From IMG/VR virus record IMGVR_UViG_3300028666_000001, positions 1 to 64,000 of that record: a DNA stretch of 64,000 nt. One strand, 5' to 3'. The stretch comes from a virus (lineage: Duplodnaviria > Heunggongvirae > Uroviricota > Caudoviricetes). The notes below the pieces were generated by a model. That model saw nothing but the letters and a program-made list of their open reading frames with translations. It was not told where the DNA came from and did no database searches. Positions 37,171 to 51,834 of the stretch are shown here, one piece after another; within the stretch, counting starts at the first letter, position 1; the number at the start of each line of letters is the position of its first letter. The translations under genes were made by a program, and so were the position numbers.

Positions 37171-37821
37171 ATGAACATAATTCCCACAGTCATAGAAAAG
37201 AATCCAGGTGCAGGTAGCATGGTGTCGTATGATCTGTTGTCACGTCTCATGCAGGATAGGATCTTGTTTGTTGGTGGTAATCATGGAGCTATCAGCCTTG
37301 ATGATGCTAACATTCTAATTGCCCAGCTTCTGTATCTGGAGTCTATTGATCCAGGCAAGCTGATTCAGATGTATATCAATTCTCCAGGTGGAGAAGTTTC
37401 CGCTGGATTGGCTATTCTTGATACAATGCGCCACATTACAAGTCCAATTCAAACTATCTGCATGGGTATGGCTATGAGCTTTGGAGCTGTGCTGCTTAGC
37501 TCAGGAGCTAAAGGCAAACGTTTTGCATTGCCTAATGCTCGTATCATGATCCATCAACCATTGATCAGCGGTGGTGGCATATCTGGTCAGGCTACAGATA
37601 TTGCTATTGAAGCTAAAGAAATGGTTCATTGCAAAGAGTCTCTTACTAAAATCATGGCTAAAAACTGTGGTCAAGAATATGAGAAGGTACTTGCTGATTG
37701 TGAACGCAATTTCTACATGTCAGCCGAGGAAGCAAAAGCGTATGGTTTGATTGATTCGGTTATTTACCCAGCAGAAGAAGGTAAGTCAAAGACCAAAGGT
37801 TATTGGGACGACGGTAAATAA
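37171..37821 (+). CDS. clpP: ClpP-family serine peptidase (S14), copy 1
   Basis: INSPGGEV, GMAMSFGAVLLSSGAKGKRFALPNARIMIHQP closely parallels E. coli ClpP [32 protein letters not shown]; GGAGG RBS. Confidence 0.8.
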   Translation: MNIIPTVIEKNPGAGSMVSYDLLSRLMQDRILFVGGNHGAISLDDANILIAQLLYLESIDPGKLIQMYINSPGGEVSAGLAILDTMRHITSPIQTICMGMAMSFGAVLLSSGAKGKRFALPNARIMIHQPLISGGGISGQATDIAIEAKEMVHCKESLTKIMAKNCGQEYEKVLADCERNFYMSAEEAKAYGLIDSVIYPAEEGKSKTKGYWDDGK

Positions 37822-37824
37822 GTA

Positions 37825-37853
37825 TTGACAGGACGTTGAATATCTGTTATAAT
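37825..37853 (+). promoter_or_regulatory. perfect consensus sigma70 promoter TTGACA-N17-TATAAT driving an ORF-free region
   Basis: exact consensus hexamers and spacing. Confidence 0.6.
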
Positions 37854-37859
37854 TAATTA

Positions 37860-38125
37860 GGTGGGTTGAGGCCCAATAAAAGAATAAGCCTGGATGCTCA
37901 TAAGAGTAGCCTAACGCATCCCATCAAATATGGAAACTAGGGGTTCAGCGGGATCTCTCCCTAGGAGTACGAAGTAAAGACGAGTCCCGCACAATTTAAG
38001 ATCATAGTGACACGAACGGTGACGTGGTAAAAAACATAATCAGACGTTAGCCAGTTCGATTCTGGGGTGTCCTCTGGGAGAGTGAAGTCTGATTCAGCTG
38101 GTTCAAGTCCAGCATATGATCGCAA
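37860..38125 (+). ncRNA. candidate structured RNA / tRNA-like element downstream of consensus promoter
   Basis: no ORF >35 aa for about 370 nt; hairpins GCTGG-TTCAAGT-CCAGC (38097-38113) and CCAG-TTCGATT-CTGG (38051-38065) are T-arm-like; 7-bp helix GATCATA(38000-06)/TATGATC(38115-21); hairpin CTAGGG..CCCTAG at 37928-37956. Confidence 0.3.
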
Positions 38126-38592
38126 ATTTGTGAGTGGATTAAATGAGTGACATGAGGTTCCAATTGGATCATATATAATCCAAGATGCCTACACTTCTCA
38201 CAAAGCCCTTTAAAGGAGATGCAAATGAAAATAATTATTGTTACAACCGTTGTTATTTTTTGGTATGCAGTAGCTGTTTGGTTAACCTATAAGATTGCTC
38301 AGTGGTTTGAGCGTAACTCATAAGGAGAGTAGAATGCAATTAGAATGTGAAACGTTTCTATTAGCTGCAGGTAGTACATACAATGAAGTAGTTAAAAGAT
38401 CAGGTCGTTTACGGATTTCTACAAGTGGAGCAATTAAGGCTTGTTCAGTTATTGGAATAACTGAAGGATTTCCTCTATTTATAAATGAATCCACTAATTA
38501 TTTAGATGTAAAAAAAGGAAGTATACTTCGTATTATAAATAGAGATGTGAGTGTTAATGTTTATTTAAGTTATGAGGGGAAAGGAAAATAAT

Positions 38593-38829
38593 ATGGCTGA
38601 TGAAATTCAATTAGAAGGTGTAGTGAGCAGCAATATATCTGCAATCGGTTTTGAAGCAAAGTCAGGAACCATGCAGGTGAAGTTCAACAATGGTGGATTG
38701 TATGAAACAGTTGGTGCTTCCCAGGCCGATTATGATACCTTCAAACTTGCTAAGAGCAAAGGTGTTCACTTCAATAAGGTTTTGAAGAGAGCATTTGCTT
38801 GGAGTAAAGTAGAGAAGAAAGGAGTATAA
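38593..38829 (+). CDS. KTSC-domain-like protein
   Basis: ISAIGFEAKSGTMQVKFNNGGLYETVGASQADYDTFKLAKSKGVHFNKVLKR resembles the KTSC domain. Confidence 0.4.
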   Translation: MADEIQLEGVVSSNISAIGFEAKSGTMQVKFNNGGLYETVGASQADYDTFKLAKSKGVHFNKVLKRAFAWSKVEKKGV

Positions 38830-38951
38830 AATGGAAACATTACTGTTGGGAAGTGTATTGTTACTTCTAGCCGTTGTATTACGTTTGTATCGTAATAAAC
38901 ATCAAGTAGAACAAGCTCGTCGCAAACATAAAAAGCTACCTCGTTAATAGA

Positions 38952-39134
38952 ATGGAGTCGTTTGTTTGTAGAACCTGTGGTCATATTCTTGGTCATGGCT
39001 TGAATTTTGCAGAGACAGGTAGATATGATTCTGTATGTCATTGTGGTTGCACTGATTGGATTCCATCAGGTAATTTACAGTATTTGGAATGGTGTTTGGA
39101 TCATAAGGTGAATAATGTACAACAGTCGTTGTAG
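38952..39134 (+). CDS. DNLxYLE-tail small Zn-knuckle protein
   Basis: CRTCGHILGH..CHCGC; tail GNLQYLEWC. Confidence 0.6.
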   Translation: MESFVCRTCGHILGHGLNFAETGRYDSVCHCGCTDWIPSGNLQYLEWCLDHKVNNVQQSL

Positions 39135-39306
39135 GAATTGCTTTTGTCTTCATTTTAATAAAGACACGAGCTTAAATTACCCAGAGAAATGTTATTGTCC
39201 AGAAGCATTTAAAGCCATACTAAGATGTATCAATTATGTGCCAAAAGAGAACTTAGAGTATTTAGAATGGGTACTAGAACATGAAACGAAATTGGAAAGT
39301 AGATAA
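39115..39306 (+). CDS. DNLxYLE-tail small Zn-knuckle protein
   Basis: CRNCFCLH..CYC; tail ENLEYLEWV. Confidence 0.6.
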   Translation: MYNSRCRNCFCLHFNKDTSLNYPEKCYCPEAFKAILRCINYVPKENLEYLEWVLEHETKLESR

Positions 39307-39538
39307 TACTGCTTTAATTGGTGAGTTTAGGTTCTGGCATGGTGAACCTAGTAGACTTCCTGCTCCCTGGGCACATCGATGTTTTTATAAGCATCCATGG
39401 AACCAAACAGTAGAAGGTAGATGTCCAGCAGCTAATCAGGTTAGAGGTAATCGTTTTACTGATCTTTGTGTAATTCAGAAGCTTGATAATCTGTTATACT
39501 TAGAATACAAGTTGGATGAAAAGGAAAAAATAAAATGA
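39281..39538 (+). CDS. DNLxYLE-tail family member
   Basis: tail DNLLYLEYK. Confidence 0.55.
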   Translation: MKRNWKVDNTALIGEFRFWHGEPSRLPAPWAHRCFYKHPWNQTVEGRCPAANQVRGNRFTDLCVIQKLDNLLYLEYKLDEKEKIK

Positions 39539-39650
39539 GTGACGATTGTAAGCACGAATGGGTACATACTTGTAAGGTTCCTGGTCAGGGACTTTGCTAC
39601 TGGTGCGATAAATGTAAATACTGTGGTGTTAAACCAATAGAAACATTCAA

Positions 39651-40040
39651 ATGACTGATATTATAAATGATTTAAAAAAGCTTGAATCAGAACATGAGAA
39701 GCAGCTACTTGAAATACGCCTGAAGATTCGTGATATTGATAGTATACCCAAAGCTAAGGCTTTGGTTGGGCGATACTTTAGATATTCAGGGGGCTTTGGA
39801 TTCTTTCATACTGCTAAAGTAAAGTCCTATATTTATAAACGTGTTATTGGTGTTGATGTGGATAGAGTTATTACTGATAGTTTCCAGGTTGAGAGAAGTG
39901 GAAAGATTGAGATCGCTTATGGACAGTCAGATTATGTAGATCATTTTACCAATAAATTCTATACAGAGATTACTGAAAGACAATATTTTGCAGCATACAA
40001 AAAGATGCTTAAATCTGTTCAGGAACATGGTAAACGTTAA
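39651..40040 (+). CDS. hypothetical protein
   Basis: 129 aa ORF. Confidence 0.4.
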   Translation: MTDIINDLKKLESEHEKQLLEIRLKIRDIDSIPKAKALVGRYFRYSGGFGFFHTAKVKSYIYKRVIGVDVDRVITDSFQVERSGKIEIAYGQSDYVDHFTNKFYTEITERQYFAAYKKMLKSVQEHGKR

Positions 40041-40130
40041 TGTTTAGATTAGAGCAGTTCATGTGGTGGTTGATTGGTAAGCAAATGAACTTTGTTTGGT
40101 GGTTGAAGGATAGAAGGCTGAGGAGTTATT

Positions 40131-40502
40131 GTGAAACTCTACGTAGACGATCTTAGGATTTGTCCAGAGGGTTGGACATTAGCCCGTACAAACACAGAAG
40201 CTATTAGACTTTTAGCTACTGGATATGTTACAGAGATATCTATAGATCATGATATTTGTGTGCCTAATGCTCATCTTATAAATCAGACTGTCCGTAAACG
40301 TCTTGCCATTGGAGAAGAGACATATCAGCCTGTGGCTTATTATATTGCTGCTATGCCAAAGCCCAATCTGATTAAAGTAAATTTCCATACAGCTAATCCA
40401 GAGGGAGCAGCAAAGATGAAGAGTATCCTTGATGCAGTAGGTATTGAATCTACCTATACCCCAGGCAGTTATCTTATTGACTTAGGAGATACAGAGATAT
40501 GA
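40131..40502 (+). CDS. hypothetical protein (GTG start per track)
   Basis: 123 aa ORF. Confidence 0.35.
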   Translation: MKLYVDDLRICPEGWTLARTNTEAIRLLATGYVTEISIDHDICVPNAHLINQTVRKRLAIGEETYQPVAYYIAAMPKPNLIKVNFHTANPEGAAKMKSILDAVGIESTYTPGSYLIDLGDTEI

Positions 40503-40888
40503 GAGAGATTGAGTTTCGAGCTTGGAATAAAAAGACCCAGAAGATGCTTCATGCTCCTGGTCCTTGTGAGAGTACTCTAGGACCTACTATGACGTTTGAT
40601 GGTCGCACATATATAAATGGTGTATATCAAGATCTGATTTACATGACATGGAGTGGTTTAATTGATAAAGAAGCTGAGAAGATCTTTGAAGGTGATATCC
40701 TTGGTGGGTTTTGGGAAGGTGGCTATATCGCATATTGCGATTTGTGCAAGAGCCTTCAATACCATTCAATGGATATATGTTTTGCCTGTGAGGGTGATGT
40801 TCACTGGTATGAGCTGGTTGAAGCAGATGGAACGCTTGAGATTTTGGGGAATGTGTATGAGAATCCAGAACTAATGGAGATAAGATGA
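40499..40888 (+). CDS. YopX-family phage protein
   Basis: N-terminal MREIEFRAWNKKTQKM typical of YopX domain. Confidence 0.5.
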   Translation: MREIEFRAWNKKTQKMLHAPGPCESTLGPTMTFDGRTYINGVYQDLIYMTWSGLIDKEAEKIFEGDILGGFWEGGYIAYCDLCKSLQYHSMDICFACEGDVHWYELVEADGTLEILGNVYENPELMEIR

Positions 40889-41109
40889 AAAAAATAGTTT
40901 TGTTTGGATTGCTGCTTGGCTTTATTGGTTGTGCTAAAGAATCTCATGAAGTTACTTGTATTGCAGATTTCTCTATAATTCCTTATCACACTCACACACA
41001 AGGTCCAGTATTTACTGTGACAGTGAATGATCAGACTTATCTTACCTTTGTAGATGCACAAGGTAAGAAAACGATCTTCGATAAGCATTATATGTGTGAG
41101 ATCAATTGA
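40885..41109 (+). CDS. lipoprotein
   Basis: MKKIVLFGLLLGFIGC lipobox. Confidence 0.45.
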   Translation: MKKIVLFGLLLGFIGCAKESHEVTCIADFSIIPYHTHTQGPVFTVTVNDQTYLTFVDAQGKKTIFDKHYMCEIN

Positions 41110-41534
41110 AGATAGAAGTGTATTCAGATGGCTCAGGCATGACAAAGGCCACACCAGCAGGGTATGGCTTTGTGGTCACTAAAAATTCCGTTAAGGTACA
41201 TGAAGGGTCAGGATATTTACCATTGGGCACTAACAATGACGCTGAGCTTCAGGGTGCGATTGAGGGGCTTAATTCTGTTCATGATGTCTTTGGTGAGTTG
41301 GAAAAGGATGATGAAGTAATCTTGGTGTCCGATTCCCAGATCATTTTGAATTGGGCTGATGGCACTAATCAATTTAAACAGGAAGAGAAGATGGATAAAT
41401 ACTTTGCCCTACGTAATCTAATGGGAGATCTAAAGGCAAAGACTCGTTGGGTCCCAGGTCATAGTGGAGATCTACATAACGAGCGTTGTGATAAACTTGC
41501 TAATGCAGCAAGACTTGGAGGCGTAAATGGATAA
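41106..41534 (+). CDS. rnhA: ribonuclease H
   Basis: VYSDGSG, TNNDAELQGAIEGL, VSDSQ, HSGDLHNERCDKLA: DEDD catalytic pattern of RNase HI. Confidence 0.8.
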   Translation: MKIEVYSDGSGMTKATPAGYGFVVTKNSVKVHEGSGYLPLGTNNDAELQGAIEGLNSVHDVFGELEKDDEVILVSDSQIILNWADGTNQFKQEEKMDKYFALRNLMGDLKAKTRWVPGHSGDLHNERCDKLANAARLGGVNG

Positions 41535-41687
41535 TTTTGTTATTACAACTGGTAGTGGTTCATACACTGGCCCTGTTACATTGGTCGCATGGATATTTAT
41601 TCATCCATGGATGACATTATTTATTTGTCTTTCCATTGCTGAAGCATTTGAAGCATGGGGTAAAGCATTTGGTCGGAGGAAGAAATA

Positions 41688-42308
41688 ATGAAACGAGTAC
41701 TTAGCAGCGGTTTTATAAAAGTACACCAGATTCTTGGAACTGAGAAAGAACGCCTAGATACCATTACTTGTCTTGGCTATCTTGGTGATAAAGCAATAGA
41801 ATACATCCTCTTTAATAACCCAGCGGTGCTTGATTACGTTGAGTTTAGATTTGAAGTCAAGGCTCCTCTGCTTACCCTTCTAGACTTCCAGGATGCCCAT
41901 TTAGGCACTATAAGTAAGCCAGAGGACTCTGAGCATCAAGTAGCCTATTTACCCTCCCAATTCTATTCCAAGGATGGTTTAACGTACAAGATTATGGACG
42001 TTAAGAGCTGTAATGCTCACTATACTAAACTTAACAACTTCTTTGAATGGTCCTTCAATTTTTATAATAAATTGGTCAAAGAGGGAATGTGTCAGGAGCA
42101 AGCTAAGCTTGTGCTGCCTCAAGGTGTATTTGTCACCTTTATGTGGAATATCACAGCCAAAGATCTAATCGAATTCATTGAACAGCATTATAATGACTCA
42201 CCAGAAATCTATGGATATTGTTCTACATTTGTGTTATATCTTGAAGAACATTTGCCACTTACTATGAGATATCTGAAGGCTCACGAATGGCAACACATAA
42301 GCCTGTAA
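41688..42308 (+). CDS. hypothetical protein
   Basis: 206 aa ORF. Confidence 0.4.
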   Translation: MKRVLSSGFIKVHQILGTEKERLDTITCLGYLGDKAIEYILFNNPAVLDYVEFRFEVKAPLLTLLDFQDAHLGTISKPEDSEHQVAYLPSQFYSKDGLTYKIMDVKSCNAHYTKLNNFFEWSFNFYNKLVKEGMCQEQAKLVLPQGVFVTFMWNITAKDLIEFIEQHYNDSPEIYGYCSTFVLYLEEHLPLTMRYLKAHEWQHISL

Positions 42309-42505
42309 TTGATGTACCTTGTAAGCTTTGTAGTCATAATCAAAGCCAACATGAGGATTTAGTAAATCCTAGTATTGACCCAATTGGTTTACAATATTGT
42401 AGTGGATGCTATAATTCTTTGGGTGAAGAAAGTTGCTTTCACGATTTTAGTCCAGACAATTTAAAATACCTGGAATTAGAGTATGAACGAAAAGAACAGC
42501 GTTAG
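42287..42505 (+). CDS. DNLxYLE-tail small Zn-knuckle protein
   Basis: CKLCSHNQSQH..CSGC; tail DNLKYLELE. Confidence 0.6.
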   Translation: MATHKPVIDVPCKLCSHNQSQHEDLVNPSIDPIGLQYCSGCYNSLGEESCFHDFSPDNLKYLELEYERKEQR

Positions 42506-42734
42506 GTTTGTAGGTGAAGGATCGAAGTGCAAGAATTGCCCCCATTTAAAGTATATTCATGAGTCTACTAATGGTATGGCTGTTCTCACATGCGGGAATT
42601 TTGAGTTCGAAGATAATCTCCAGTATTTGGAGTATCAACTTCAGTTAAAGGAAAAACGTGTTAAGACTTATTGGGATCGCTTGTGCAACTATTGCCCTAT
42701 TTTTCGAATTTTCAAGTTATCTAAGACAGATTAA
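42483..42734 (+). CDS. DNLxYLE-motif Zn-knuckle protein
   Basis: CKNCPHLKYIH..C; DNLQYLEYQ. Confidence 0.55.
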   Translation: MNEKNSVRFVGEGSKCKNCPHLKYIHESTNGMAVLTCGNFEFEDNLQYLEYQLQLKEKRVKTYWDRLCNYCPIFRIFKLSKTD

Positions 42735-42940
42735 GAAGACACTTAGAGCTAGACATTCCAATCAAGTGTCATCTTCTTCTTATCTATTTAAGATAGCAAA
42801 GATCTCTTTCAATTTAATTAATTTAGCTATATTCTCTAATTGGGTTGGTTTTGGGATGGAGTCTGCAGCTCTTGTTATTTGTGTAGCAGCCTTAACGGTT
42901 ATCTCGCATTTTAAACCAAAAGGTTGGAGGTTGATTCACT

Positions 42941-43126
42941 TTGGAAAATAATTTCATATGCGTTTGTGGGCATCCAAAAAGTATGCATAGAGATAGTGAT
43001 CCCTGGTTTGATGGACGAGCTACTTGTTTGATGTCTAACTCTTCTTCTGGGGTTCATTTCTGTTTGTTTAAACTTGATAATCTTAGGTATTTAGAATATG
43101 TCCTCAATCAGCGAAAATTGGTTTAG
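42941..43126 (+). CDS. DNLxYLE-tail small Zn-knuckle protein
   Basis: CVCGHPKSMH; tail DNLRYLEYV. Confidence 0.6.
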   Translation: MENNFICVCGHPKSMHRDSDPWFDGRATCLMSNSSSGVHFCLFKLDNLRYLEYVLNQRKLV

Positions 43127-43520
43127 ATCATCAGTAGTTGGAACTGATCCCGTTACTAAGGGAACATTCATAATTCAATGGGCTAATTTTATTTATGACC
43201 TTGAATCTCAGGATGATGGTACTGGAACTGCAGTATTCAAAGAGGCTAGGGTAGAGGGTCAGATTTTAATTGAGGGTCCAGCTAGTCGCAATCCATTGTA
43301 TCAAGTAGCGAGAGATCATATGTTACGTTTGCAGGGGTTAATGGCAACAGTTATATTTGGTGCTGAGAAGAAGCTTATTCGTTTTGATTCCATATCAGAC
43401 TATCAGATCCAGGAAGATGGAATTGTAAATGAGATTGAATTAAAGGCTGTATTTGAGATATTAAATAATTTAGAATATTTAGAGAACATACAAGCCTATA
43501 AGGAGAACAATCTATTATGA
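43098..43520 (+). CDS. DNLxYLE-tail family, long form
   Basis: tail NNLEYLENI. Confidence 0.5.
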   Translation: MSSISENWFRSSVVGTDPVTKGTFIIQWANFIYDLESQDDGTGTAVFKEARVEGQILIEGPASRNPLYQVARDHMLRLQGLMATVIFGAEKKLIRFDSISDYQIQEDGIVNEIELKAVFEILNNLEYLENIQAYKENNLL

Positions 43521-45423: not shown

Positions 45424-45762
45424 ATGAGTGAAAAGCAGGAAGTACATGTCTGTAAAGCATGTGGAACAATTCAGATTGTTGAATCTGCATATTCCAAAAT
45501 GACTGAGCTTCAGAAAGCCACAGTAGCAGCACAGCAAGCAGCAATCGATTTCTTGGAGTCTATTGCTGATGGATATGATCAAGATAGCGCACCTCTTCAT
45601 GGAACATCAGCTGAGCATCTTCAATGCTCTGATGTTCGAGAGAAGATTCCTGTCGTATCAGATGTTAATATTTCACAGTTGCAGAAGTTACTAGTAGATT
45701 TCTTTCAAAGAAATATCTCACTCGAAATAAAGGAGACTCAAAATGGCACGAAGAACAATTGA
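45424..45762 (+). CDS. hypothetical protein
   Basis: AAAGGAGAATAAGATG RBS. Confidence 0.4.
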   Translation: MSEKQEVHVCKACGTIQIVESAYSKMTELQKATVAAQQAAIDFLESIADGYDQDSAPLHGTSAEHLQCSDVREKIPVVSDVNISQLQKLLVDFFQRNISLEIKETQNGTKNN

Positions 45763-45931
45763 TCCAGCAGTAAAGACAGCAGTAGTTGCAGCAGCATTGG
45801 CAGATGGAGCTAATCTTCCAGAGATCGCAAAGCAATACGGCGTTTCTCTCCCAACGGTTTACAATTGGAAGAATGCCGTACTTCGAGCAGAACAGCCAGC
45901 ATTGGCCCCAGCAGCAGTACCAGTGGTGTAA
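45743..45931 (+). CDS. helix-turn-helix DNA-binding protein
   Basis: LPEIAKQYGVSLPTVYNWK resembles transposase/terminase-small-subunit HTH. Confidence 0.4.
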   Translation: MARRTIDPAVKTAVVAAALADGANLPEIAKQYGVSLPTVYNWKNAVLRAEQPALAPAAVPVV

Positions 45932-46301
45932 TCATGGGATTCTTTCTAGGTTGGTTTGCTTTTTGTCTAATCTTTAATTTGATCTTGCTTGGCGTAGCTG
46001 TATGGGCAGTGATTAAGATCGTAAGGAAGATCTGTAAATGAATAAGAATTCAGTTGTAATGGTTGTTCCAAATACAAAAGAGGGACTGTCGGCAATTAAA
46101 GAACTTGCCAAACAAATTGTTGATAACGAGATCTTTGTTAGACTTGTTACTAAGAAAGAGTTTGAGAAGGGATTCGCTAGAATCAAATAGACATGTGGCT
46201 ACTTGATGATGATGTTTGCCCTACATGTTTGGAGAATAAACGTCAGTTGGGTTGTATAAGTGAATTTCATATTAAGTATGAAAAAATAAAGGAGACTCAA
46301 A

Positions 46302-46670
46302 ATGCGTGAAGAAACGATTATCAATGGATTCAAATCTTTAGAACAACGTCTTGGTCAGGTTGTCCAATTCCTTCAGGGTTTCCAACAGGCTATCCGTTTG
46401 GATTCAACCAGCAAAGAGATTCGTCTCTTGGCTATTCAGCAGCTTTTGGTTAAAAAAGCCTTGCTAACTGAAGCAGAGATCACAGAACAATCAGGTGAAG
46501 TTATTAAGCAGATGCAGAAACAGGCTGAAGAAGAAGCAGCTAAAGCAGCTGAAGCAGCTAAAACTCCAGTCATTGTTCCAGCTACTCCAGAACAGACAGC
46601 ACAAGTTGCAGCAACACCAACAGCAGCAGCTGAAGCAGAAGTAACAGCAGTAGTTCCACCTCAAGCTTAA
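46302..46670 (+). CDS. hypothetical A/E/Q-rich protein
   Basis: GGAG RBS. Confidence 0.35.
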   Translation: MREETIINGFKSLEQRLGQVVQFLQGFQQAIRLDSTSKEIRLLAIQQLLVKKALLTEAEITEQSGEVIKQMQKQAEEEAAKAAEAAKTPVIVPATPEQTAQVAATPTAAAEAEVTAVVPPQA

Positions 46671-47234
46671 TGCTTAAAAGCATGGCGCAACAGGTAGTTG
46701 TATTCTTCGTGTTAGCATTGTATACTTCTGTTATATTAGGTATAGGATGGTTTGCAGCTATAACATATGAATCTTCTGCTATTGAGTTGGAAAGGTCAGT
46801 TTATTCTTCGGTCAAGTTTGCTAAGCATTTTCCTCCCCCTCAACCAGGATATGAAGAGTGTACAAGTGATCCTGTACCAGGGGAAAAGAATTTCTTTATT
46901 AAACTTTGTCAGGATACACCTTTGGAGAAATAAGGAGATATGAATGGAAAACCATGAGAGATTTACTGTTTCAGTAAGTTTCACTGTATGTGAAGGTTTA
47001 AAAGATAAAGCCTTAGAAGAAGTCAAAGATCTTCTTAATCATATTCATACAAAAGCATTGGATCATGCTAGTGATGTAAAAGTTAAAGTTACACATGAGC
47101 CAATAGAATGAAAGACTTTTACGGGTTTGCTTCAGAACATCCGTTTCTAACTTTCTTTTTGTTTGCAATTGTATTTGATTGTATTTCAGATTGTTTTAAA
47201 GCTATAGCAGGTATATTTAAAAGGAGATCTTAAT

Positions 47235-47915
47235 ATGGAACTAGTTCAGAAAGATTCAAATGATCCAAAGTATGTTGCGGATAATCCAGGTATGAATGCT
47301 GAACAGGCTAAAGCTTTTGCTGCCCTCGCTGGTGTAGCTACAGCAGCTAAAGCAGCAGATCCAAGACTTGCAATGGCACAAACGATTGCAGCTCAAACAG
47401 GTAAAACTATAGAAGAAGTATTGTCATTCATGGGTCCTGCAGTTTCAGCTCCAGTACCAGCAGCACCAGCAGAGATCTTTGCAGAAGAGCCTCTTGAAGA
47501 GATTAAAGATGCAAAGCCAGCAAAGGTTGTAGTTCCAGTAGCTGAAGTCCCAGGTGATGATAAGTTCGTCGTTACTGAGATCGTCAATCTGGAAGATGCT
47601 TCTGAAGCAGATCTTGACAAACTTGCACAGGAAGAGGAAGACGAAACGCAAGATTGGAGTGGAAAGATCCGAGTAGGTAGCAAAGTAAAGATCATCTATC
47701 AGGTTTCTGCCAGCCGTATCAATTGGATTGGTAAGAAAGGCAAAGTAACCCGTATCATTGGTAATGAAGCTGCTAAGGTATTCGATGTTGAGTTCCAGGG
47801 TGGTAAGATTCCAAAGATTCGTTTGAATAAGAAAACTGGCAAACTTGAGCGTGGTTATGAGAAGAAGGTTATTCGTAATACGTTCTCAGAAGACCAGATC
47901 GAACTAGCCGACTAA
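47235..47915 (+). CDS. hypothetical acidic protein with KOW-like C-terminal region
   Basis: AAAGGAG RBS; A/P-rich N-half. Confidence 0.4.
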   Translation: MELVQKDSNDPKYVADNPGMNAEQAKAFAALAGVATAAKAADPRLAMAQTIAAQTGKTIEEVLSFMGPAVSAPVPAAPAEIFAEEPLEEIKDAKPAKVVVPVAEVPGDDKFVVTEIVNLEDASEADLDKLAQEEEDETQDWSGKIRVGSKVKIIYQVSASRINWIGKKGKVTRIIGNEAAKVFDVEFQGGKIPKIRLNKKTGKLERGYEKKVIRNTFSEDQIELAD

Positions 47916-48100
47916 TGAATAGAAGTCCTTGTAGAATTTGTGGGGCTTGGAGAGTACAAGGTTATCATTTTGTTCCTGTGGATATAGGTGGACCTACTAC
48001 TAATATCCCCAATCCTTATGTCCGTAAAGAAGAATGTGTTCCATCTGATAATCTTGAGTATTTAGAACAGCAATATGAGAAACGAAATGTTCAAAAGTGA
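47915..48100 (+). CDS. DNLxYLE-tail small Zn-knuckle protein
   Basis: CRICG..H; tail DNLEYLEQQ. Confidence 0.6.
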   Translation: MNRSPCRICGAWRVQGYHFVPVDIGGPTTNIPNPYVRKEECVPSDNLEYLEQQYEKRNVQK

Positions 48101-48260
48101 TTGCAGAAACTGCAAACACAATAATCATGGTGATCACTGTGATGTTGTTTATTGTTCTTATGGTGATCCAAGTGAACCTGATTATTGTGAGTGTTCAGAG
48201 TATATACCATCCAACAATTTAGAATATGTTGAATGGTCCTATCTTAGGAGTGTAAAATGA
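48075..48260 (+). CDS. DNLxYLE-tail small Zn-knuckle protein
   Basis: CRNCKHNNHGDHC..CEC; tail NNLEYVEWS. Confidence 0.6.
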   Translation: MRNEMFKSDCRNCKHNNHGDHCDVVYCSYGDPSEPDYCECSEYIPSNNLEYVEWSYLRSVK

Positions 48261-48571
48261 GTATGACAATTGGTATTCCAACAGGTGCTTCACAAATAGT
48301 TCCAGTAGGAGCTTATCCTCCCCCACCCACAGGTAATCTTAAAATGCCCTCTTATCCAGGTGAAGATCTTAAGCCTGAAAAAGAATGGGAACCAGAATTC
48401 AGAGAAACCTTTTCTAAGGGGATTCTGAAGATGAGAATGCAGGAGTATTTTGGTGGGAAATATACAAAGAAATACATTGATACTTATTTAGAATTTATGG
48501 TTCTTAGTGGTATGGTTAATAACCTCGAATATTTAGAATTCAAGGGGATGTTGGCAAGGGAGTCTCTATGA
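48257..48571 (+). CDS. DNLxYLE-tail family, long form
   Basis: tail NNLEYLEFK. Confidence 0.5.
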   Translation: MSMTIGIPTGASQIVPVGAYPPPPTGNLKMPSYPGEDLKPEKEWEPEFRETFSKGILKMRMQEYFGGKYTKKYIDTYLEFMVLSGMVNNLEYLEFKGMLARESL

Positions 48572-48987
48572 GACGTATCCAGCGATTCCATGTACTATCT
48601 GTCTTTGGTGATATGAAACCCCACAATTATAATGATGCTATTATGATTGGTTCTTTGCACATTTCTAATCCAGCTAATCGTATGGAGATTTGGCCTGGGC
48701 AGAAGATCAGCAAGAATATGTATGCCAGTCAGGTATTCGAAGCAATGGTTAAAAAGTTGATGGAAGATGGTCTATTAAAACGTGTAGAAACCAATGAGAT
48801 TCGAATGGCAAGACTTAATAAAGAATACATGATTGATGCACGAGACTGGAATATTCAGATTACAGAAAAGGGTCGTGATTGCTTAGGTATGGAACAGATC
48901 GCTCGTTCAGGTGATTATAGCTTCTATAAGAACTTTGATGGTACAACAGGCAGCGCAGCAAAGATTAACCCAGGTCTGTTTAAATAA
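48568..48987 (+). CDS. hypothetical protein
   Basis: 139 aa ORF. Confidence 0.4.
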   Translation: MRRIQRFHVLSVFGDMKPHNYNDAIMIGSLHISNPANRMEIWPGQKISKNMYASQVFEAMVKKLMEDGLLKRVETNEIRMARLNKEYMIDARDWNIQITEKGRDCLGMEQIARSGDYSFYKNFDGTTGSAAKINPGLFK

Positions 48988-49184
48988 TGAAAGATCTTTG
49001 TAGGTGTGGGCATTTAAAACCAATGCATATTACTTGGTCTAATGGCGGTGTTGCTGTTAGCTATGATGTTACAACATGTATTGGGTATAGAGATGAAGCA
49101 TTGGGTGTATGTCCATGCAAGAGTTTTATTCCAGATGACAATCTTGAATTTCTAGAACTTGAAGCAGCGAAGAGAGGTAAATAA
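48987..49184 (+). CDS. DNLxYLE-tail small Zn-knuckle protein
   Basis: CRCGHLKPMH..CPC; tail DNLEFLELE. Confidence 0.6.
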   Translation: MKDLCRCGHLKPMHITWSNGGVAVSYDVTTCIGYRDEALGVCPCKSFIPDDNLEFLELEAAKRGK

Positions 49185-49368
49185 CAATGCCATATGGTAG
49201 ACGTAAATATGGGAGACTTAAAAGACAGGGGGTAAAACCAGTGGATGTGAGCATACCAAATTTTATCTGTCCTAAGTGTAAGAAGATTAGACCCATTGAT
49301 ACACAGCACACCGAAATAACAGCCCTTGAAAATAAACAATTATTGATGTATACTAAGCTGTGTGGTGA

Positions 49369-49680
49369 TTGTACAAAGCTATTGCAAGAATGGTTGAAAG
49401 GATGAAAGTATTTCTTCTTTGGTTTAATGAATGGGAAGCTAACTATGTGCTTGGGATCTTTGAGTCTAAAGAACAGGCTGAACGATGGCAATCTTATTTT
49501 GTAGCTAATCCACTTGACGATGATTATGGTCCTGATATGGCGCATTTTGCAAGGGGTGAAGTTGATTGGACAAGTAGATTTATGATTGAGGAATATGAGG
49601 TTGGTAAGCTAAAACCAAGTATCAAAATTGATAACCTGAAGTATGTCGAGCATTTATTTACGGAGAATGAAGATGCATGA
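49369..49680 (+). CDS. DNLxYLE-tail family, long form
   Basis: tail DNLKYVEHL. Confidence 0.5.
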   Translation: MYKAIARMVERMKVFLLWFNEWEANYVLGIFESKEQAERWQSYFVANPLDDDYGPDMAHFARGEVDWTSRFMIEEYEVGKLKPSIKIDNLKYVEHLFTENEDA

Positions 49681-49928
49681 GAAATTAGTAGAATTAAGTT
49701 TACTGGAAAAGAATTGGGATTCTTATGGTGGAAAGCCTATGACACGACTTGCCCTACAACAGGCTGAATTACTTCTCCGATGCTTTGCAGCTATTGATGC
49801 AGTTGAACCTTTTGTTATTCCCACAAGCGGTGGTGGTATTCAACTAGAATGGCATACAGGTGGTTATGATTTAGAGATGGAAATTTTAGACAGTGGAATA
49901 GTGGGGGAAGTATATACTACGAGATATA

Positions 49929-50531
49929 ATGAAAAAACGAACGCCTAAAGTATTTTTACGTGATACTAATGAGAACGTAGTGTTCTTCTGGAAAAAGTAT
50001 TTTAAACCTTTTCCTGAAGTAGAGATTTCCAGTGGTGATATCTTTGAGATTAAAGCTGATGCTATAGTCTCACCCGCCAATAGCTTTGGTATGATGAGTG
50101 GTGGGATTGATTTGATTTATAGAGATAAATTTGGACTAGATGTAGAAAAGCTTGTGCAGAAGAATATTGATCTCCATTACTATGGTGAGTTGCCAGTTGG
50201 TCAAGCGTTGAGTGTTCCTATGAAAGGCCAGGATTACAATTATTTGATTGTGGCTCCTACCATGCGTCTTCCAATGAGTGTAGATAATACCCTCCATCCT
50301 TATGCTGCCTTTCGTGCTACCCTTTTAAGAGCTAAAGATAAAGAAATTGAGTCACTTGTGTGCCCAGGACTTGGAACGGGTGCTGGTATAGCATGTCCAG
50401 AAATGGTAGCCCGTCAAATGTTTATTGCTTATATCAATGTTGTTCTAAATATAAGTCCTACCAATTATGATCATCTATTAAAGCAAATGGGTTGGATGTT
50501 ACGTTGTTCTCAGGATAAAAGAGTTCTCTAA
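49929..50531 (+). CDS. macro-domain protein (ADP-ribose binding/hydrolase)
   Basis: IKADAIVSPANSFGMMSGGIDLIY and CPGLGTGAGI match macro-domain signature. Confidence 0.6.
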   Translation: MKKRTPKVFLRDTNENVVFFWKKYFKPFPEVEISSGDIFEIKADAIVSPANSFGMMSGGIDLIYRDKFGLDVEKLVQKNIDLHYYGELPVGQALSVPMKGQDYNYLIVAPTMRLPMSVDNTLHPYAAFRATLLRAKDKEIESLVCPGLGTGAGIACPEMVARQMFIAYINVVLNISPTNYDHLLKQMGWMLRCSQDKRVL

Positions 50532-50640
50532 GGAGCTTTAATGGATTCATCGACGGGTAGATGTATGTTGTGCAATGGTACGACGATTCAGATTAGTGAG
50601 CATGAGTTTAGATGTTTAGAGTGTAATTATACAAATCACC

Positions 50641-50856
50641 GTGGGAAATAAGCGTAGAATATTAATTTGTAGCTGTGGTCATAAGAAGAAACTGCATGAG
50701 TCAGGTCCTTGTTGGGGATGTCTTGAACTTAACCTAAAGGATAATATGGCTGGTATTACTGTTAATGATAGACATATTATGTGCATAAGATTTAAATTAG
50801 ACAATCTTAGATACTTAGAAATGGAATATGCGAGACTATCAAAAAGAATATCTTGA
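50641..50856 (+). CDS. DNLxYLE-tail small Zn-knuckle protein
   Basis: CSCGHKKKLH..CWGC; tail DNLRYLEME. Confidence 0.6.
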   Translation: MGNKRRILICSCGHKKKLHESGPCWGCLELNLKDNMAGITVNDRHIMCIRFKLDNLRYLEMEYARLSKRIS

Positions 50857-51007
50857 GCATCCAGTTAAATGTGTTAAATGTGGACAGGCTTGGGTTCCTG
50901 ATGCAAGACATGTGGTAGATGACCGAGTAGAAAATTGCAAGCCAGATAATTTAACTTATTTAGAATTCATGTATGAAAAAAGCCTTAATAAACCACAAGT
51001 CGAATGA
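50828..51007 (+). CDS. DNLxYLE-tail family member (59 aa, not in track)
   Basis: read from sequence: ..CVKCGQAWVPDARH..CKPDNLTYLEFMYEK. Confidence 0.5.
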   Translation: MRDYQKEYLEHPVKCVKCGQAWVPDARHVVDDRVENCKPDNLTYLEFMYEKSLNKPQVE

Positions 51008-51218
51008 TCCAAGAGAGTACTGTCGTACTTGTAGCCATGCTGATTGGTTGCACGTTAAAACATATTATTATGCTTGTGGTAGAAAACCACGTTCCTATCA
51101 TGAGGCACAATATGCCTCTGAGATTTGTCCCTGTAAAGAATTTTTGCCTGAAGATAATTTAGCTTACTTAGAGCAGTTAGAGAAAAGGAGTCACACTAAT
51201 GAAACCCCACAATCATGA
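50973..51218 (+). CDS. DNLxYLE-tail small Zn-knuckle protein
   Basis: CRTCSHADWLH..CPC; tail DNLAYLEQL. Confidence 0.6.
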   Translation: MKKALINHKSNDPREYCRTCSHADWLHVKTYYYACGRKPRSYHEAQYASEICPCKEFLPEDNLAYLEQLEKRSHTNETPQS

Positions 51219-51834
51219 GGATGAAGAATCTCAAGGTACACCATTTAATCCATATAATGAATTTGAAATTGATACCTATAAGGCTCTTCTTAAAGATAGG
51301 ATCATTCTTTATAATGGTGATATCGATAAAAGTGTAATTGAACGAATTGTTCTACCACTCACCACTTTGGCACAGAAAAGTGTAAAGCCAATAAAGCTCC
51401 TGATCAATTCTCCAGGTGGGTCTGTAACAGATGGGCAAATGGTTGTAGATTCTATCTTAACTTCTAAAGCACCAGTTATCACCGTTGCACTTGGAGAAGC
51501 TATGAGTGCAGCCTTTGATATATTTCTTGCTGGAGATAGACGCATTGTGTACCCAAATACAGTCCTCATGATGCACTCAGGCTCATCTAGGTTTGAATCT
51601 CAGACTTTACCTCAGATCAATGTAGAGGCTGATCTTCATCGTAGGTACTTTGAGAGATGGTCTGCTTGGTATGCCTCCCGCACTAAAGTTGATCAGAAGG
51701 CTTGGCATGACATGCTTAGTACTGGATTAAATTATTATTATTTTCCAGAGGAAGCATTAAAGGTTGGTTTGGTTCATGAGATCATTAAACCAGTAAGTAA
51801 GAATGTTTCTGGAAGAAAACGATTTAAATTATAA
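51199..51834 (+). CDS. ClpP-fold serine peptidase (S14), divergent copy 2
   Basis: LINSPGGSV, GEAMSAAFDIFLAGDRRIVYPNTVLMMHSGSS parallels ClpP Ser/His regions; AAAAGGAG RBS. Confidence 0.65.
   Translation: MKPHNHEDEESQGTPFNPYNEFEIDTYKALLKDRIILYNGDIDKSVIERIVLPLTTLAQKSVKPIKLLINSPGGSVTDGQMVVDSILTSKAPVITVALGEAMSAAFDIFLAGDRRIVYPNTVLMMHSGSSRFESQTLPQINVEADLHRRYFERWSAWYASRTKVDQKAWHDMLSTGLNYYYFPEEALKVGLVHEIIKPVSKNVSGRKRFKL

What the first reader, a model, noticed from the sequence alone, without database searches (positions are those of the whole stretch)
37171..51834. Two divergent ClpP-fold proteases embedded in small-gene arrays rather than in a head-morphogenesis module
The 37171 gene has INSPGG, GMAMSFG and MIHQP; the 51199 gene has INSPGG, GEAMSAA and MMHSG. 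Both are clear S14-fold proteins but are highly divergent from each other. Each sits at the 3' end of a run of DNLxYLE-tail genes and is followed by more of them. Neither is adjacent to portal, capsid or scaffold genes, so a prohead-protease role is not supported by context. By my manual alignment the residue at the catalytic Asp position looks substituted (RNFYMSA versus E. coli RDRFLSA), though a D lies three residues upstream. Together with the orphan ClpX ZBD, this suggests a phage-encoded proteolysis module. It might act on, or be directed by, the tail-bearing family; that link is inference only.
Basis: partly seen in the sequence, partly recalled or inferred. Interest (0 to 1): 0.75.

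Follow-up and report, generated by a model that had tools for sequence, protein, structure and literature searches.

The report
Phage with two ClpP protease genes
A large uncultured phage carries two ClpP protease subunit genes, one copied from its probable Elusimicrobiota host and one divergent phage-only copy, which may pair as bacterial ClpP1/ClpP2 do but remain untested.

Summary
Both genes are real ClpP-family (MEROPS S14, PF00574) proteins. They are 28% identical, and both have Ser-His-Asn instead of Ser-His-Asp.

ClpP-A (37171-37821) is a canonical ClpP. It keeps the N-terminal loop, most of the unfoldase-docking pocket and the Glu/Arg sensor. It groups with Elusimicrobiota ClpPs (60-68% identical). 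All 23 of those fetched also carry Asn, and one sits in a tig-clpP-clpX-lon operon. So the Asn is inherited from the donor lineage, not a phage defect.

ClpP-B (51199-51834) belongs to a phage-only family of about 85 proteins. Ser and His are invariant and Asn is near-invariant. The docking pocket, N-terminal loop and Arg sensor are lost, but the model keeps the handle helix.

Both genes occur in the same order in all five related genomes where both positions can be seen. ClpP-A is missing at that site in one relative, replaced by another variant in two, and elsewhere in two.

Best reading (about 0.4): ClpP-B forms a non-docking ring that pairs with a canonical ring (ClpP-A or host ClpP) driven by a host unfoldase. 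Main rival: ClpP-B is the capsid-maturation protease.

The link to the DNLxYLE-tail genes is not supported. Interest is moderate: a new variant of a known kind.

The parts
37171..37821 (+). ClpP-A: a canonical, host-type ClpP proteolytic subunit (216 aa) with a Ser-His-Asn triad. The N-terminal loop (MNIIPTVIE), most of the IGF-loop pocket and the Glu/Arg oligomerisation sensor are intact.
   Evidence: Pfam CLP_protease 230 bits. PDB ClpP hits reach E 1e-60. The triad and pocket were mapped. The closest cellular relatives are Elusimicrobiota ClpPs at 60-68% identity, and an NJ tree places the phage clade with them.
51199..51834 (+). ClpP-B: a divergent ClpP paralogue found only in this phage clade (211 aa). 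It has Ser103, His126 and Asn178. The docking pocket, canonical N-terminal loop and Arg sensor are lost, and it has a basic C-terminal tail (RKRFKL).
   Evidence: Pfam CLP_protease 105 bits. The family has about 85 proteins at 49-100% identity, and the next cellular ClpPs are 37% identical or less. Conservation comes and feature mapping. The AF2 model has pLDDT 87.4, and the top Foldseek PDB hits are all ClpP.
52919..53092 (+). A 57-aa ORF conserved downstream of ClpP-B in all eight related loci. Its role is unknown. It is listed as a linked neighbour, not a proven part.
   Evidence: tblastn gives 50-78% identity at the same relative position in L001-L007 and L090.
26663..26851 (+). A stand-alone ClpX-type C4 zinc-finger (ZBD-like) ORF of 62 aa. 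It may be an accessory of the Clp theme and lies 10 kb upstream of ClpP-A.
   Evidence: Pfam zf-C4_ClpX E 5e-5, below the cut-off. BLASTP against an Endomicrobiaceae ClpX N-terminus gives E 8e-7. An exhaustive HMMER search found six stand-alone representatives, then repeat proteins with several ClpX-type zinc fingers carrying CSFCGK...ICDEC.
37825..37853 (+). A perfect sigma-70 consensus promoter (TTGACA, 17 nt, TATAAT, with TG) four bases after the ClpP-A stop. It suggests ClpP-A ends one transcription unit.
   Evidence: It is the only 12/12 match in 36-54 kb. This is a consensus match only, and the total number of promoter-like sites is no higher than in shuffled sequence.

Best explanation
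The phage encodes two ClpP proteolytic subunits that are not equivalent.

Shown:
- ClpP-A is a canonical ClpP captured from an Elusimicrobiota-type genome. It keeps what is needed to dock an AAA+ unfoldase: the N-terminal loop, pocket residues L23, L48, Y62, H82, I90, M92, F112, L114 and I189, and the Glu169/Arg170 sensor. Only Y60 is changed.
- Its Ser-His-Asn triad is the normal state in that phylum.
- ClpP-B is an old, phage-specific paralogue. Ser and His are invariant, and the third residue is Asn (Asp in a few members). The model shows the full ClpP fold with the handle helix.
- ClpP-B has lost the aromatic pocket residues (Y60K, Y62L, F82T, L48T), the canonical N-terminal loop and the Arg sensor.

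Inferred, by analogy with ClpP1/ClpP2 of Listeria, Pseudomonas, Mycobacterium and Streptomyces:
- ClpP-B assembles as a heptameric ring that cannot bind an unfoldase itself.
- It stacks on a canonical ring, either ClpP-A or, in phages without it, the 60-68% identical host ClpP.
- This gives a mixed tetradecamer driven by host ClpX or another host Clp ATPase through the canonical face.
- The mixed enzyme would have altered activity or cleavage preference during infection.
- No unfoldase gene is present in the window, so the ATPase is presumed to come from the host.
For: Family membership and triad.

Host origin of ClpP-A:
- The top 20 or so genome hits are Elusimicrobiota or Endomicrobia at 60-68% identity. 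Other phyla reach at most about 59%.
- All of those hits are S-H-N.
- The NJ tree groups the phage clade with them.
- The operon tig-clpP-clpX-lon is seen in an Endomicrobiaceae chromosome.

Asymmetry in docking features.

ClpP-B appears to be under selection as an enzyme. S103 and H126 are invariant across 41 sequences and across all full-length family members. The model has pLDDT 87.4 with a long handle helix at 137-161. The top Foldseek hits include the Listeria ClpP1/2, P. aeruginosa ClpP1/P2, Streptomyces ClpP1P2 and M. tuberculosis ClpP1P2 complexes.

The pair is conserved. Both genes lie in the same order (RNA ligase, ClpP-A, KTSC ... cREC, RNase H, ThyX, PDF ... Macro, ClpP-B) in contigs of 188,674, 182,960, 119,809 and 114,237 bp. 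Both also occur on contigs of 192,099, 151,359, 146,401, 141,877 and 117,595 bp.

Literature:
- LmClpP1 has Ser98-His123-Asn172, is an inactive heptamer that cannot bind AAA+ partners, and becomes active in a ClpP1/2 heterocomplex to which ClpX docks only through ClpP2 (PMC9257651).
- Pseudomonas ClpP1 has a non-canonical triad and a truncated N-terminus, does not bind ClpX, and works within ClpP1P2 (PMC12900304).
- ClpP in jumbo phages is thought to be deployed against the host (PMC7824862).
Against: - No physical or structural evidence of a mixed complex could be obtained, because no multimer prediction was available.
- The two genes are 13.4 kb apart and are not co-operonic. A consensus promoter follows ClpP-A.
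- In two relatives they lie about 91 kb apart.
- In L004, ClpP-A is absent between the orthologues of its flanking genes, so ClpP-B does not strictly need a phage ClpP-A.
- ClpP-A history does not match ClpP-B history. ClpP-A is 87-88% identical where ClpP-B is 50-55%, and 56-58% where ClpP-B is 73%. This argues against tight co-evolution of the pair.
- Loss of docking features is also what a prohead protease would show.
- ClpP-B lacks the Asp/Arg sensor that stabilises ring-ring contacts in canonical ClpP.
Confidence: 0.4

Rival explanations
1. ClpP-B is the capsid (prohead) maturation protease of this phage clade. ClpP-A is an unrelated, host-derived auxiliary ClpP that only supplements host ClpXP. 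The two do not interact.
For: - ClpP-B is present in every related locus, and its divergence tracks that of the genome.
- Its best PHROG hit is phrog_94, 'head maturation protease', at E 4.5e-22.
- It matches mycobacteriophage capsid maturation proteases over 94% of its length at 26.7% identity.
- It lacks unfoldase-docking features.
- It has a conserved basic C-terminal tail that could target it to a procapsid.
- It is always followed by conserved large proteins of unknown function. The first is a highly charged, low-complexity 933-aa protein.
- ClpP-A can be absent.
Against: - No portal, scaffold or major capsid gene was recognised in the window, and the mostly large ORFs scanned from related loci also gave none.
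- The conserved 1178-aa neighbour is a mosaic protein rich in zinc ribbons, not a capsid or portal protein.
- ClpP-B is closer to cellular ClpPs (E 1e-15, 35% identity) than to annotated prohead proteases (E 3e-6).
- The genuine host-type ClpP-A hits phrog_94 even more strongly (E 9.4e-36), so that label does not discriminate.
- The gene overlaps small genes in a region that looks like early or host-takeover genes.
Confidence: 0.27
2. Each ClpP acts alone. ClpP-A forms homo-tetradecamers with host ClpX. ClpP-B is an unfoldase-independent peptidase, or works with an unidentified phage partner encoded outside the window.
For: - The genes are not adjacent and their histories do not match.
- ClpP-B keeps Ser and His and the full fold.
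- About two thirds of the genome was not seen.
Against: - ClpP-B lacks the Arg sensor and the glycine (E. coli Gly127, Ser/Ala/Thr in the family) of the handle strand, features that stabilise canonical homo-tetradecamers.
- Characterised divergent ClpP paralogues of this type are weak or inactive alone (PMC9257651, PMC12900304).
Confidence: 0.15
3. ClpP-B is a decoy or poison ring. It caps host ClpP heptamers to block or re-route host ClpXP, for example to protect phage proteins or to disable a defence that depends on Clp.
For: - Docking features are lost while the ring-forming fold is kept.
- A stand-alone ClpX-type zinc finger in the same genome could likewise compete for ClpX adaptor or substrate binding.
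Against: - The catalytic Ser and His are invariant across the family. This is not expected for a pure decoy.
- The phage often brings its own canonical ClpP, which would be pointless if the aim were inhibition.
Confidence: 0.08
4. One reading: the ClpP genes act on, or are directed by, the DNLxYLE-tail family, with the tail serving as a degron or targeting signal.
For: - The tail family was found only in loci of the ClpP-B phage clade, at 2-22 per 20 kb. None was found in 1,390 kb of other viral ClpP loci or in 675 kb of bacterial loci.
- Orthologous tail-family genes flank ClpP-B in several relatives.
- The motif also occurs on unrelated, Cys-free bodies, as a portable tag would.
Against: - The co-occurrence amounts to a single phylogenetic event.
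- Adjacency is not significant, P about 0.08.
- The motif is internal, 3-20 residues from the end, whereas known ClpX C-terminal degrons sit at the extreme C-terminus (established knowledge of ssrA-type and MuA-type tags).
- No sequence resemblance to known Clp degrons or adaptor-binding motifs was recognised; this rests on recall, not on a test.
Confidence: 0.06

Closest known systems
Listeria monocytogenes ClpP1/ClpP2 heterocomplex (PDB 4RYF)
   Same: - It has one canonical paralogue that docks ClpX, and one divergent paralogue with a Ser-His-Asn triad that cannot bind AAA+ partners and is active only in a mixed 7+7 complex (PMC9257651).
- 4ryf chains are the top Foldseek hits for the ClpP-B model.
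   Different: - Here both paralogues carry Asn, including the canonical one.
- The genes are on a phage.
- ClpP-B has also lost the Asp/Arg sensor, and it has a basic KFKF-type C-terminal tail.
- Complex formation is untested.
Pseudomonas ClpP1/ClpP2 and Mycobacterium/Streptomyces ClpP1P2
   Same: - The divergent paralogue has a non-canonical triad or altered N-terminus and does not bind ClpX.
- The heterocomplex is driven through the canonical ring (PMC12900304; PMC4416901 abstract).
   Different: - Those are chromosomal paralogues of one organism.
- Here the canonical partner looks horizontally acquired from the host lineage and is replaceable.
ClpP genes of jumbo phages (for example Agrobacterium phage Atu_ph07; groups 1 and 2.2 of Iyer et al.)
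   Same: Large phages carry ClpP serine protease genes in a patchy pattern, which has been read as deployment against the host (PMC7824862, PMC6102473). About 170 IMG/VR contigs carry cellular-type ClpP.
   Different: - None of the 83 other viral loci examined has two ClpP-like ORFs within 10 kb, and only 5 of 83 are Ser-His-Asn.
- Atu_ph07 brings its own ClpX, ClpA and ClpS. No unfoldase is seen in this window.
ClpP-like (S14) prohead maturation proteases of siphoviruses and mycobacteriophages
   Same: They have a similar size of about 200 aa, the ClpP fold, Ser and His, and no need for an unfoldase. ClpP-B aligns to Mycobacterium phage Malithi gp4 at 26.7% identity.
   Different: Those genes sit between portal and capsid genes. 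ClpP-B sits among small genes and metabolic genes, and it is closer to cellular ClpPs.
Elusimicrobiota housekeeping ClpP
   Same: ClpP-A is 60-68% identical to it. It shares the Ser-His-Asn triad, the GGNHG-type insertion and the ISGGGISGQ handle strand.
   Different: ClpP-A is phage-borne and forms its own clade. It has family-specific Cys residues (DCERN, NCGQ).

Membership tests
ClpP / MEROPS S14 (Pfam PF00574) | Profile match over the whole ClpP domain, above the curated cut-off | tested here: met
   ClpP-A scores 230.4 bits over profile positions 4-179 of 182. ClpP-B scores 104.8 bits over 6-180 of 182. The cut-off is 20.2 bits.
ClpP / MEROPS S14 (Pfam PF00574) | Catalytic Ser and His in the G-x-A-x-S and M-x-H motifs | tested here: met
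   Both have Ser and His at the positions of E. coli S97 and H122. They are invariant in both families.
ClpP / MEROPS S14 (Pfam PF00574) | Catalytic Asp (E. coli D171) completing the triad | tested here: not met
   Both have Asn. This is a known rare variant, as in LmClpP1 (PMC9257651, PMC12900304), and it is universal in the Elusimicrobiota ClpPs fetched. It does not exclude membership.
ClpP / MEROPS S14 (Pfam PF00574) | N-terminal axial loop and hydrophobic pocket for IGF/LGF loops of ClpX/ClpA/ClpC | tested here: inconclusive
   ClpP-A keeps them: IPTVIE plus L23, L48, Y62, H82, I90, M92, F112, L114 and I189, with only Y60 changed to Q. ClpP-B does not: L48T, Y60K, Y62L, F82T, F112I, L114Y and an unrelated N-terminus. 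These are sequence positions only; no binding test was possible.
ClpP / MEROPS S14 (Pfam PF00574) | Handle region (helix E and strand 9) for stacking two heptamers | tested here: met
   In ClpP-A it is conserved in alignment. The ClpP-B AF2 model has a helix at 137-161 with pLDDT of about 83-96 across this stretch. However, ClpP-B has Gly-Leu in place of the Glu/Asp-Arg sensor.
ClpP / MEROPS S14 (Pfam PF00574) | Tetradecameric barrel and ATPase-dependent proteolysis | not testable with these tools
   This needs biochemistry or multimer modelling.
Two-isoform ClpP1/ClpP2 heterocomplex systems | Two divergent clpP paralogues in one genome, one docking-competent and one not | tested here: met
   They are 28% identical, and their docking features are asymmetric.
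Two-isoform ClpP1/ClpP2 heterocomplex systems | Both paralogues retained together across relatives | tested here: inconclusive
   Both are present in the same order in all five related contigs where both sites are visible, including the window's own record. They are present but about 91 kb apart in two contigs. ClpP-A is absent at the syntenic site in L004. The slot holds a 56-58% identical variant in two contigs.
Two-isoform ClpP1/ClpP2 heterocomplex systems | Physical 7+7 hetero-tetradecamer with enhanced or altered activity | not testable with these tools
   No multimer prediction or experiment was available.
ClpP-like prohead (capsid maturation) protease | Gene located beside portal, scaffold or major capsid genes | tested here: not met
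   No such gene was recognised by Pfam or PHROGs in the window, nor among the mostly large ORFs scanned from related loci. The neighbours are small ORFs, a Macro domain protein, a DUF7249 protein and a zinc-ribbon mosaic protein. Caveat: several large ORFs are unannotated and about two thirds of the genome was not seen.
ClpP-like prohead (capsid maturation) protease | Closer to phage prohead protease families than to cellular ClpP | tested here: not met
   The best phage-record hits are cellular-type ClpPs (35% identity, E 1e-15). Annotated capsid maturation proteases score E 3e-6. The phrog_94 hit is shared with ClpP-A, where it is stronger.
ClpP-like prohead (capsid maturation) protease | Presence in proheads and processing of capsid proteins | not testable with these tools
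   This needs virion proteomics.
NfeD/STOPP membrane protease partnered with SPFH proteins | NfeD-type profile match and adjacency to an SPFH gene | tested here: not met
   ClpP-B hits NfeD1b_N at only 19.3 bits against a cut-off of 40. The SPFH gene (18898-19716) is 32 kb away.
ClpX N-terminal zinc-binding domain (zf-C4_ClpX), for ORF 26663-26851 | C4 zinc finger matching the ClpX profile | tested here: inconclusive
   Pfam gives E 5e-5 but 23.5 bits, below the 27-bit cut-off. The ORF is 30% identical over 43 aa to an Endomicrobiaceae ClpX, with identical Cys spacing. Library-wide HMMER hits are to proteins with several ClpX-type zinc fingers.

The most novel reading that the evidence does not exclude
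ClpP-B rings capture a host-type ClpP ring (the phage's own ClpP-A or the host's) to build a hybrid phage-host ClpXP with new specificity. The clade-specific DNLxYLE helix, carried by about 40 small early proteins, together with the stand-alone ClpX-type zinc finger, would form a phage-encoded tagging and adaptor system. That system would time the destruction of those proteins, or of host proteins bound to them. A variant of this reading is that the seven KFKF C-terminal tails of a ClpP-B ring mimic IGF loops and dock on the seven pockets of a canonical ClpP ring.
Probability: 0.06. Interest if true: 0.8.

Novelty: new variant of a known kind. Interest (0 to 1): 0.45.

Why it matters
- If ClpP-B pairs with a host-type ClpP ring, this would be, as far as I could find, the first viral example of the ClpP1/ClpP2 principle. 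A phage would remodel the core of the host's main regulated protease rather than only supplying adaptors or inhibitors.
- The canonical partner gene appears to be swapped among related phages (87% identical in distant genomes, 56% in close ones). That would fit a need to match the current host's Clp system.
- Separately, the survey shows that Ser-His-Asn is the standard triad of the ClpP encoded beside tig, clpX and lon in Elusimicrobiota. In the Listeria literature this triad is described as 'impaired', so Asn by itself should not be read as inactivating.
- The ClpP-A phylogeny also gives a host-phylum prediction (Elusimicrobiota) for an uncultured phage clade of roughly 120-190 kb.

Tried and rejected
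- **DNA search against phage records.** A megablast of 36-52 kb found no match, so no close sequenced phage is in that collection.
- **First IMG/VR scan with ClpP-B alone.** It found nothing. An alignment was needed.
- **IMG/VR pattern scans for ClpP-A.** These are not exhaustive. They missed the variant ClpP in the 119,809-bp contig, which the gene look-up later showed. I therefore withdrew an earlier inference that most ClpP-B phages lack a canonical ClpP.
- **Large downstream ORFs as structural genes.** Pfam, PHROGs and PDB sequence searches gave nothing for the 933-, 870- and 1178-aa proteins or for nine homologues or neighbours. Reading the 1178-aa sequence shows repeated zinc ribbons and low-complexity linkers, so I ran no further search on it.
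- **L008/L009, the nearest viral outgroup of ClpP-B.** Their neighbours gave no head-module annotation either.
- **The 470-nt gap after ClpP-A as a tmRNA or tRNA-like RNA.** ARAGORN found none. Rfam found none at gathering score, and only a 12-bit permuted-tmRNA hit at E 4. The fold z-score is -0.53, and the gap is not conserved. Rejected.
- **An ACP-like gene after ClpP-A, as in relatives.** It is absent from the window.
- **NfeD/SPFH pairing.** Rejected.
- **ClpP-B as a recent duplicate of ClpP-A because both have Asn.** Not supported. The two are 28% identical, the best cellular hits of ClpP-B are Asp-type Firmicutes ClpPs, and the most basal family member has Asp.

Full report
**Observation.** The window looks like part of a large phage genome. 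About 145 of 163 predicted ORFs are on the + strand, GC content is about 38%, and most genes are small. Two ORFs are ClpP-family proteins.

ClpP-A is listed as 37159-37821. Database homologues start at the ATG at 37171, which overlaps the upstream stop codon, giving 216 aa. ClpP-B is 51199-51834, 211 aa. Pfam CLP_protease scores are 230.4 bits and 104.8 bits against a cut-off of 20.2. The two proteins are 28% identical.

**Catalytic triad.** HMMER alignments to solved ClpPs place Asn at the catalytic Asp position in both proteins. ClpP-A 'cerN' and ClpP-B 'tglN' both align with 'tdrD'. A MAFFT alignment with E. coli ClpP gives Ser-His-Asn for both.

**ClpP-A is a captured host-type ClpP.**
- Its homologues fall into a phage group at 66-100% identity that grades into cellular ClpPs at 63-70%. 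Nearly all of these are also Ser-His-Asn.
- In a scan of one genome per prokaryotic species, the best 20 or so hits are all Elusimicrobiota or Endomicrobia at 60-68% identity. Other phyla reach at most about 59%.
- All 23 Elusimicrobiota loci carry Asn, whereas most other phyla carry Asp.
- In an Endomicrobiaceae chromosome this ClpP lies in tig-clpP-clpX-lon. In another MAG it lies in tig-clpP-lon.
- An NJ tree places the phage ClpP-A clade as sister to, or within, the Elusimicrobiota Asn clade.

So the Asn is inherited from the donor lineage, where it is the form encoded in the main Clp operon. It is not a phage-specific lesion. This also points to Elusimicrobiota as the likely host phylum.

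ClpP-A keeps the N-terminal loop (MNIIPTVIE). It keeps pocket residues L23, L48, Y62, H82, I90, M92, F112, L114 and I189; only Y60 is changed. It also keeps the Glu169/Arg170 sensor and the glycine-rich handle strand. It therefore looks fully able to dock a Clp ATPase.

**ClpP-B is a divergent family seen only in this phage clade.**
- About 85 database proteins are 49-100% identical to it, on contigs of up to 192 kb. Identity then drops to 37% or less for cellular ClpPs.
- Ser103 and His126 are invariant. Asn178 is present in about 90% of members.
- The most basal member has Asp, and one small subclade has reverted to Asp. Asp and Asn therefore appear interchangeable in this family.
- Pocket residues are replaced: L48T, Y60K, Y62L, F82T, F112I/V, and L114Y (invariant).
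- The N-terminus is unrelated to the canonical loop and is disordered in the model.
- The Glu/Asp-Arg sensor next to the third triad residue is Gly-Leu.
- The AF2 model built from the family alignment is confident (pLDDT 87.4, pTM 0.80). It has the full ClpP fold, including a long handle helix at 137-161.
- The top 50 Foldseek PDB hits are all ClpP. The first are chains of the Listeria ClpP1/2 heterocomplex, followed by the Pseudomonas, Streptomyces and Mycobacterium two-isoform complexes. The E-values differ little, so the ranking itself carries no weight.
- The C-terminus is always basic. In 49 of 81 members it ends aromatic-basic-hydrophobic, typically KFKF. This is unexplained.

**Context.** Pfam places both genes among RNA-repair, nucleotide-metabolism and host-interaction genes. 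These include two RNA ligases, an HD-kinase, a HAD_SAK_2 protein, Thg1, cREC_REC, YopX, RNase H, ThyX, peptide deformylase, a Macro domain protein, KTSC and an SPFH protein (YopX from relatives).

No portal, scaffold, capsid or terminase gene was recognised. No AAA+ unfoldase is present in the window, and no tRNA was found.

Downstream of ClpP-B lie several conserved genes: a 57-aa ORF, a 933-aa charged low-complexity protein whose relative carries DUF7249, and a 1178-aa mosaic protein rich in zinc ribbons. An 870-aa ORF between the last two is an insertion unique to this genome. Further downstream are a 1026-aa protein, DeoC and a protein of more than 2000 aa. None could be annotated as structural.

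**Conservation of the pair.** Looking up peptide-deformylase homologues, which lie midway between the two ClpP genes, allowed both positions to be seen at once. Contigs of 188,674, 119,809 and 114,237 bp, together with the 182,960-bp contig, all show the same order: RNA ligase, ClpP, KTSC ... cREC, RNase H, ThyX, PDF ... ClpP-B. In a 139,494-bp contig the locus ends before the ClpP-B position.

The canonical slot is unstable, however:
- In the 119,809-bp and 139,494-bp contigs it holds a different Ser-His-Asn ClpP. This is only 56-58% identical to ClpP-A, although PDF is 71-76% and ClpP-B is 73% identical.
- In two more distant genomes (151 and 142 kb), ClpP-A is 87-88% identical but lies about 91 kb from ClpP-B. 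There ClpP-B is only 50-55% identical and other shared genes are 26-59%.
- In L004 the orthologues of the genes flanking ClpP-A are adjacent, with no ClpP between them.

ClpP-B therefore behaves as a clade-defining gene whose divergence tracks that of neighbouring genes. The canonical ClpP behaves as a replaceable and probably horizontally exchanged gene. Among 83 other viral ClpP loci, none had a second ClpP-like ORF within 10 kb, and only 5 were Ser-His-Asn.

**Mechanism.** The asymmetry matches the characterised bacterial two-isoform systems.
- Listeria ClpP1 has Ser98-His123-Asn172. It is an inactive heptamer that cannot bind AAA+ chaperones. It becomes active only when stacked on ClpP2, and ClpX docks only on ClpP2 (PMC9257651).
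- Pseudomonas ClpP1 has a non-canonical triad and a truncated N-terminus and does not bind ClpX. It works within a ClpP1P2 complex driven through ClpP2 (PMC12900304).

By analogy, I propose that ClpP-B forms a non-docking ring that pairs with a canonical ring, either ClpP-A or the 60-68% identical host ClpP. Host ClpX or another host Clp ATPase would drive the complex. What is shown is family membership, the triad, the pattern of docking features, the origin of ClpP-A and the co-occurrence. The heterocomplex, its ATPase and its substrates are inferred. I give this reading about 0.4.

**Main rival.** ClpP-B could be the clade's prohead protease (about 0.27).
- For: it is present in every relative, lacks docking features, has a conserved basic tail, and precedes conserved large proteins, one of which could be scaffold-like. 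PHROGs labels it 'head maturation protease'.
- Against: the same PHROG family matches the genuine host-type ClpP-A even better. ClpP-B is closer to cellular ClpPs than to annotated capsid proteases. No head gene is recognisable nearby.

About two thirds of the genome could not be examined, so this rival is not excluded.

**The tail family and the zinc finger.** At least 39 small ORFs between 10.1 and 53.4 kb carry [DN]NLxYLE 3-20 residues before the C-terminus. Most have CxCGH...CxC zinc-ribbon bodies, but four have Cys-free bodies. Adjacency to the ClpP genes is not significant (P about 0.08).

Among everything fetched, the family occurs only in loci of the ClpP-B clade. That amounts to one phylogenetic co-occurrence. 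The motif is not at the extreme C-terminus, as known ClpX degrons are. The proposed functional link therefore stays speculative (about 0.06).

The 62-aa ORF at 26663-26851 is a plausible stand-alone ClpX-type zinc finger. It lies 10 kb from ClpP-A and its role is unknown.

**Novelty and verdict.** ClpP genes in large phages are already known from genome annotation (PMC7824862, PMC6102473). I found no functional study of a phage ClpP. The Ser-His-Asn triad is known from Listeria ClpP1. Three things appear new:
1. A phage-only ClpP family with ClpP1-like loss of docking features.
2. Its conserved pairing with a host-derived canonical ClpP whose gene is swapped among related phages.
3. As a by-product, the finding that Asn is the standard third triad residue in Elusimicrobiota ClpP.

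I rate this a new variant of a known kind, with moderate interest (0.45).

Noticed in passing
window 10123-53380: At least 39 small paralogous ORFs carry [DN]NLxYLE 3-20 residues before the C-terminus. Most have CxCGH...H...CxC zinc-ribbon bodies, but four have Cys-free bodies (36720-36992, 43098-43520, 48257-48571, 49369-49680). Two members gave no Pfam hit. Among the fetched loci, the family is seen only in the ClpP-B phage clade.
   Followed up: partly
window 37825-38294: A perfect sigma-70 consensus promoter (TTGACA, 17 nt, TATAAT, with TG) lies four bases after the ClpP-A stop. About 440 nt without an ORF follow it, including two T-arm-like hairpins. There was no tRNA, tmRNA or Rfam hit, the fold z-score is -0.53, and the stretch is not conserved in related loci. 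Relatives carry an ACP-like PP-binding gene at this position (L091 10660-10899, L179 4444-4683).
   Followed up: yes
window 26663-26851: A stand-alone 62-aa ClpX-type C4 zinc-finger ORF with an extra N-terminal Cys cluster. Only six stand-alone representatives exist among 1.8 billion cluster representatives. The next hits are proteins with three or four repeated ClpX-type zinc fingers.
   Followed up: partly
L010-L032, L042 (Elusimicrobiota genome loci): Every Elusimicrobiota or Endomicrobia ClpP fetched (23 loci) has Ser-His-Asn instead of Ser-His-Asp. One lies in a tig-clpP-clpX-lon operon (L025). A few other lineages (one Myxococcota, one Hydrothermia, one WOR-3) also have Asn. I did not check whether these genomes also hold an Asp-type ClpP.
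   Followed up: partly
window 1286-2416, 5272-6474, 25022-26440, 33779-36178, 40131-40502: A large set of RNA-repair-type genes: two RNA ligases, an HD + AAA_33 kinase, HAD_SAK_2, a metallophosphatase, a Thg1-like tRNA-His guanylyltransferase and a cREC_REC receiver. This resembles the 'Swiss Army Knife' RNA repair systems.
   Followed up: no
window 56246-58858: An 870-aa ORF has no homologue in eight related loci. It is inserted between the conserved 933-aa and 1178-aa genes. Only weak PDB hits to pentraxin or carbohydrate-binding-like regions were found.
   Followed up: partly
L180 4612-5265 and L178 4093-4695 (contigs of 119,809 and 139,494 bp): In these contigs the slot occupied by ClpP-A (RNA ligase ... 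ClpP ... KTSC) holds a different Ser-His-Asn ClpP with INCPGG and ARIMMHQ. It is only 56-58% identical to ClpP-A, although neighbouring genes are 70-76% identical. This suggests replacement of the canonical ClpP gene in place.
   Followed up: partly
window 51790-51834 (ClpP-B C-terminus) and family P0001-P0083: The ClpP-B C-terminus is always basic. In 49 of 81 family members it ends aromatic-basic-hydrophobic (KFKF, KYKF, KFKL). One subclade ends in RKRK or RKSK instead. Its function is unknown.
   Followed up: no
window 18898-19716: An SPFH/Band 7 protein (Pfam 112 bits; phrog_200) is encoded on the phage. It is 32 kb from ClpP-B, so an NfeD-type pairing is unlikely.
   Followed up: partly
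window 59275-62811 and L175 13562-23537: A run of very large mosaic proteins (1178 aa, 1026 aa and more than 2049 aa) has many CxxC zinc ribbons, low-complexity linkers and a DUF2188-like segment. They resemble the polyvalent proteins of large phages.
   Followed up: no
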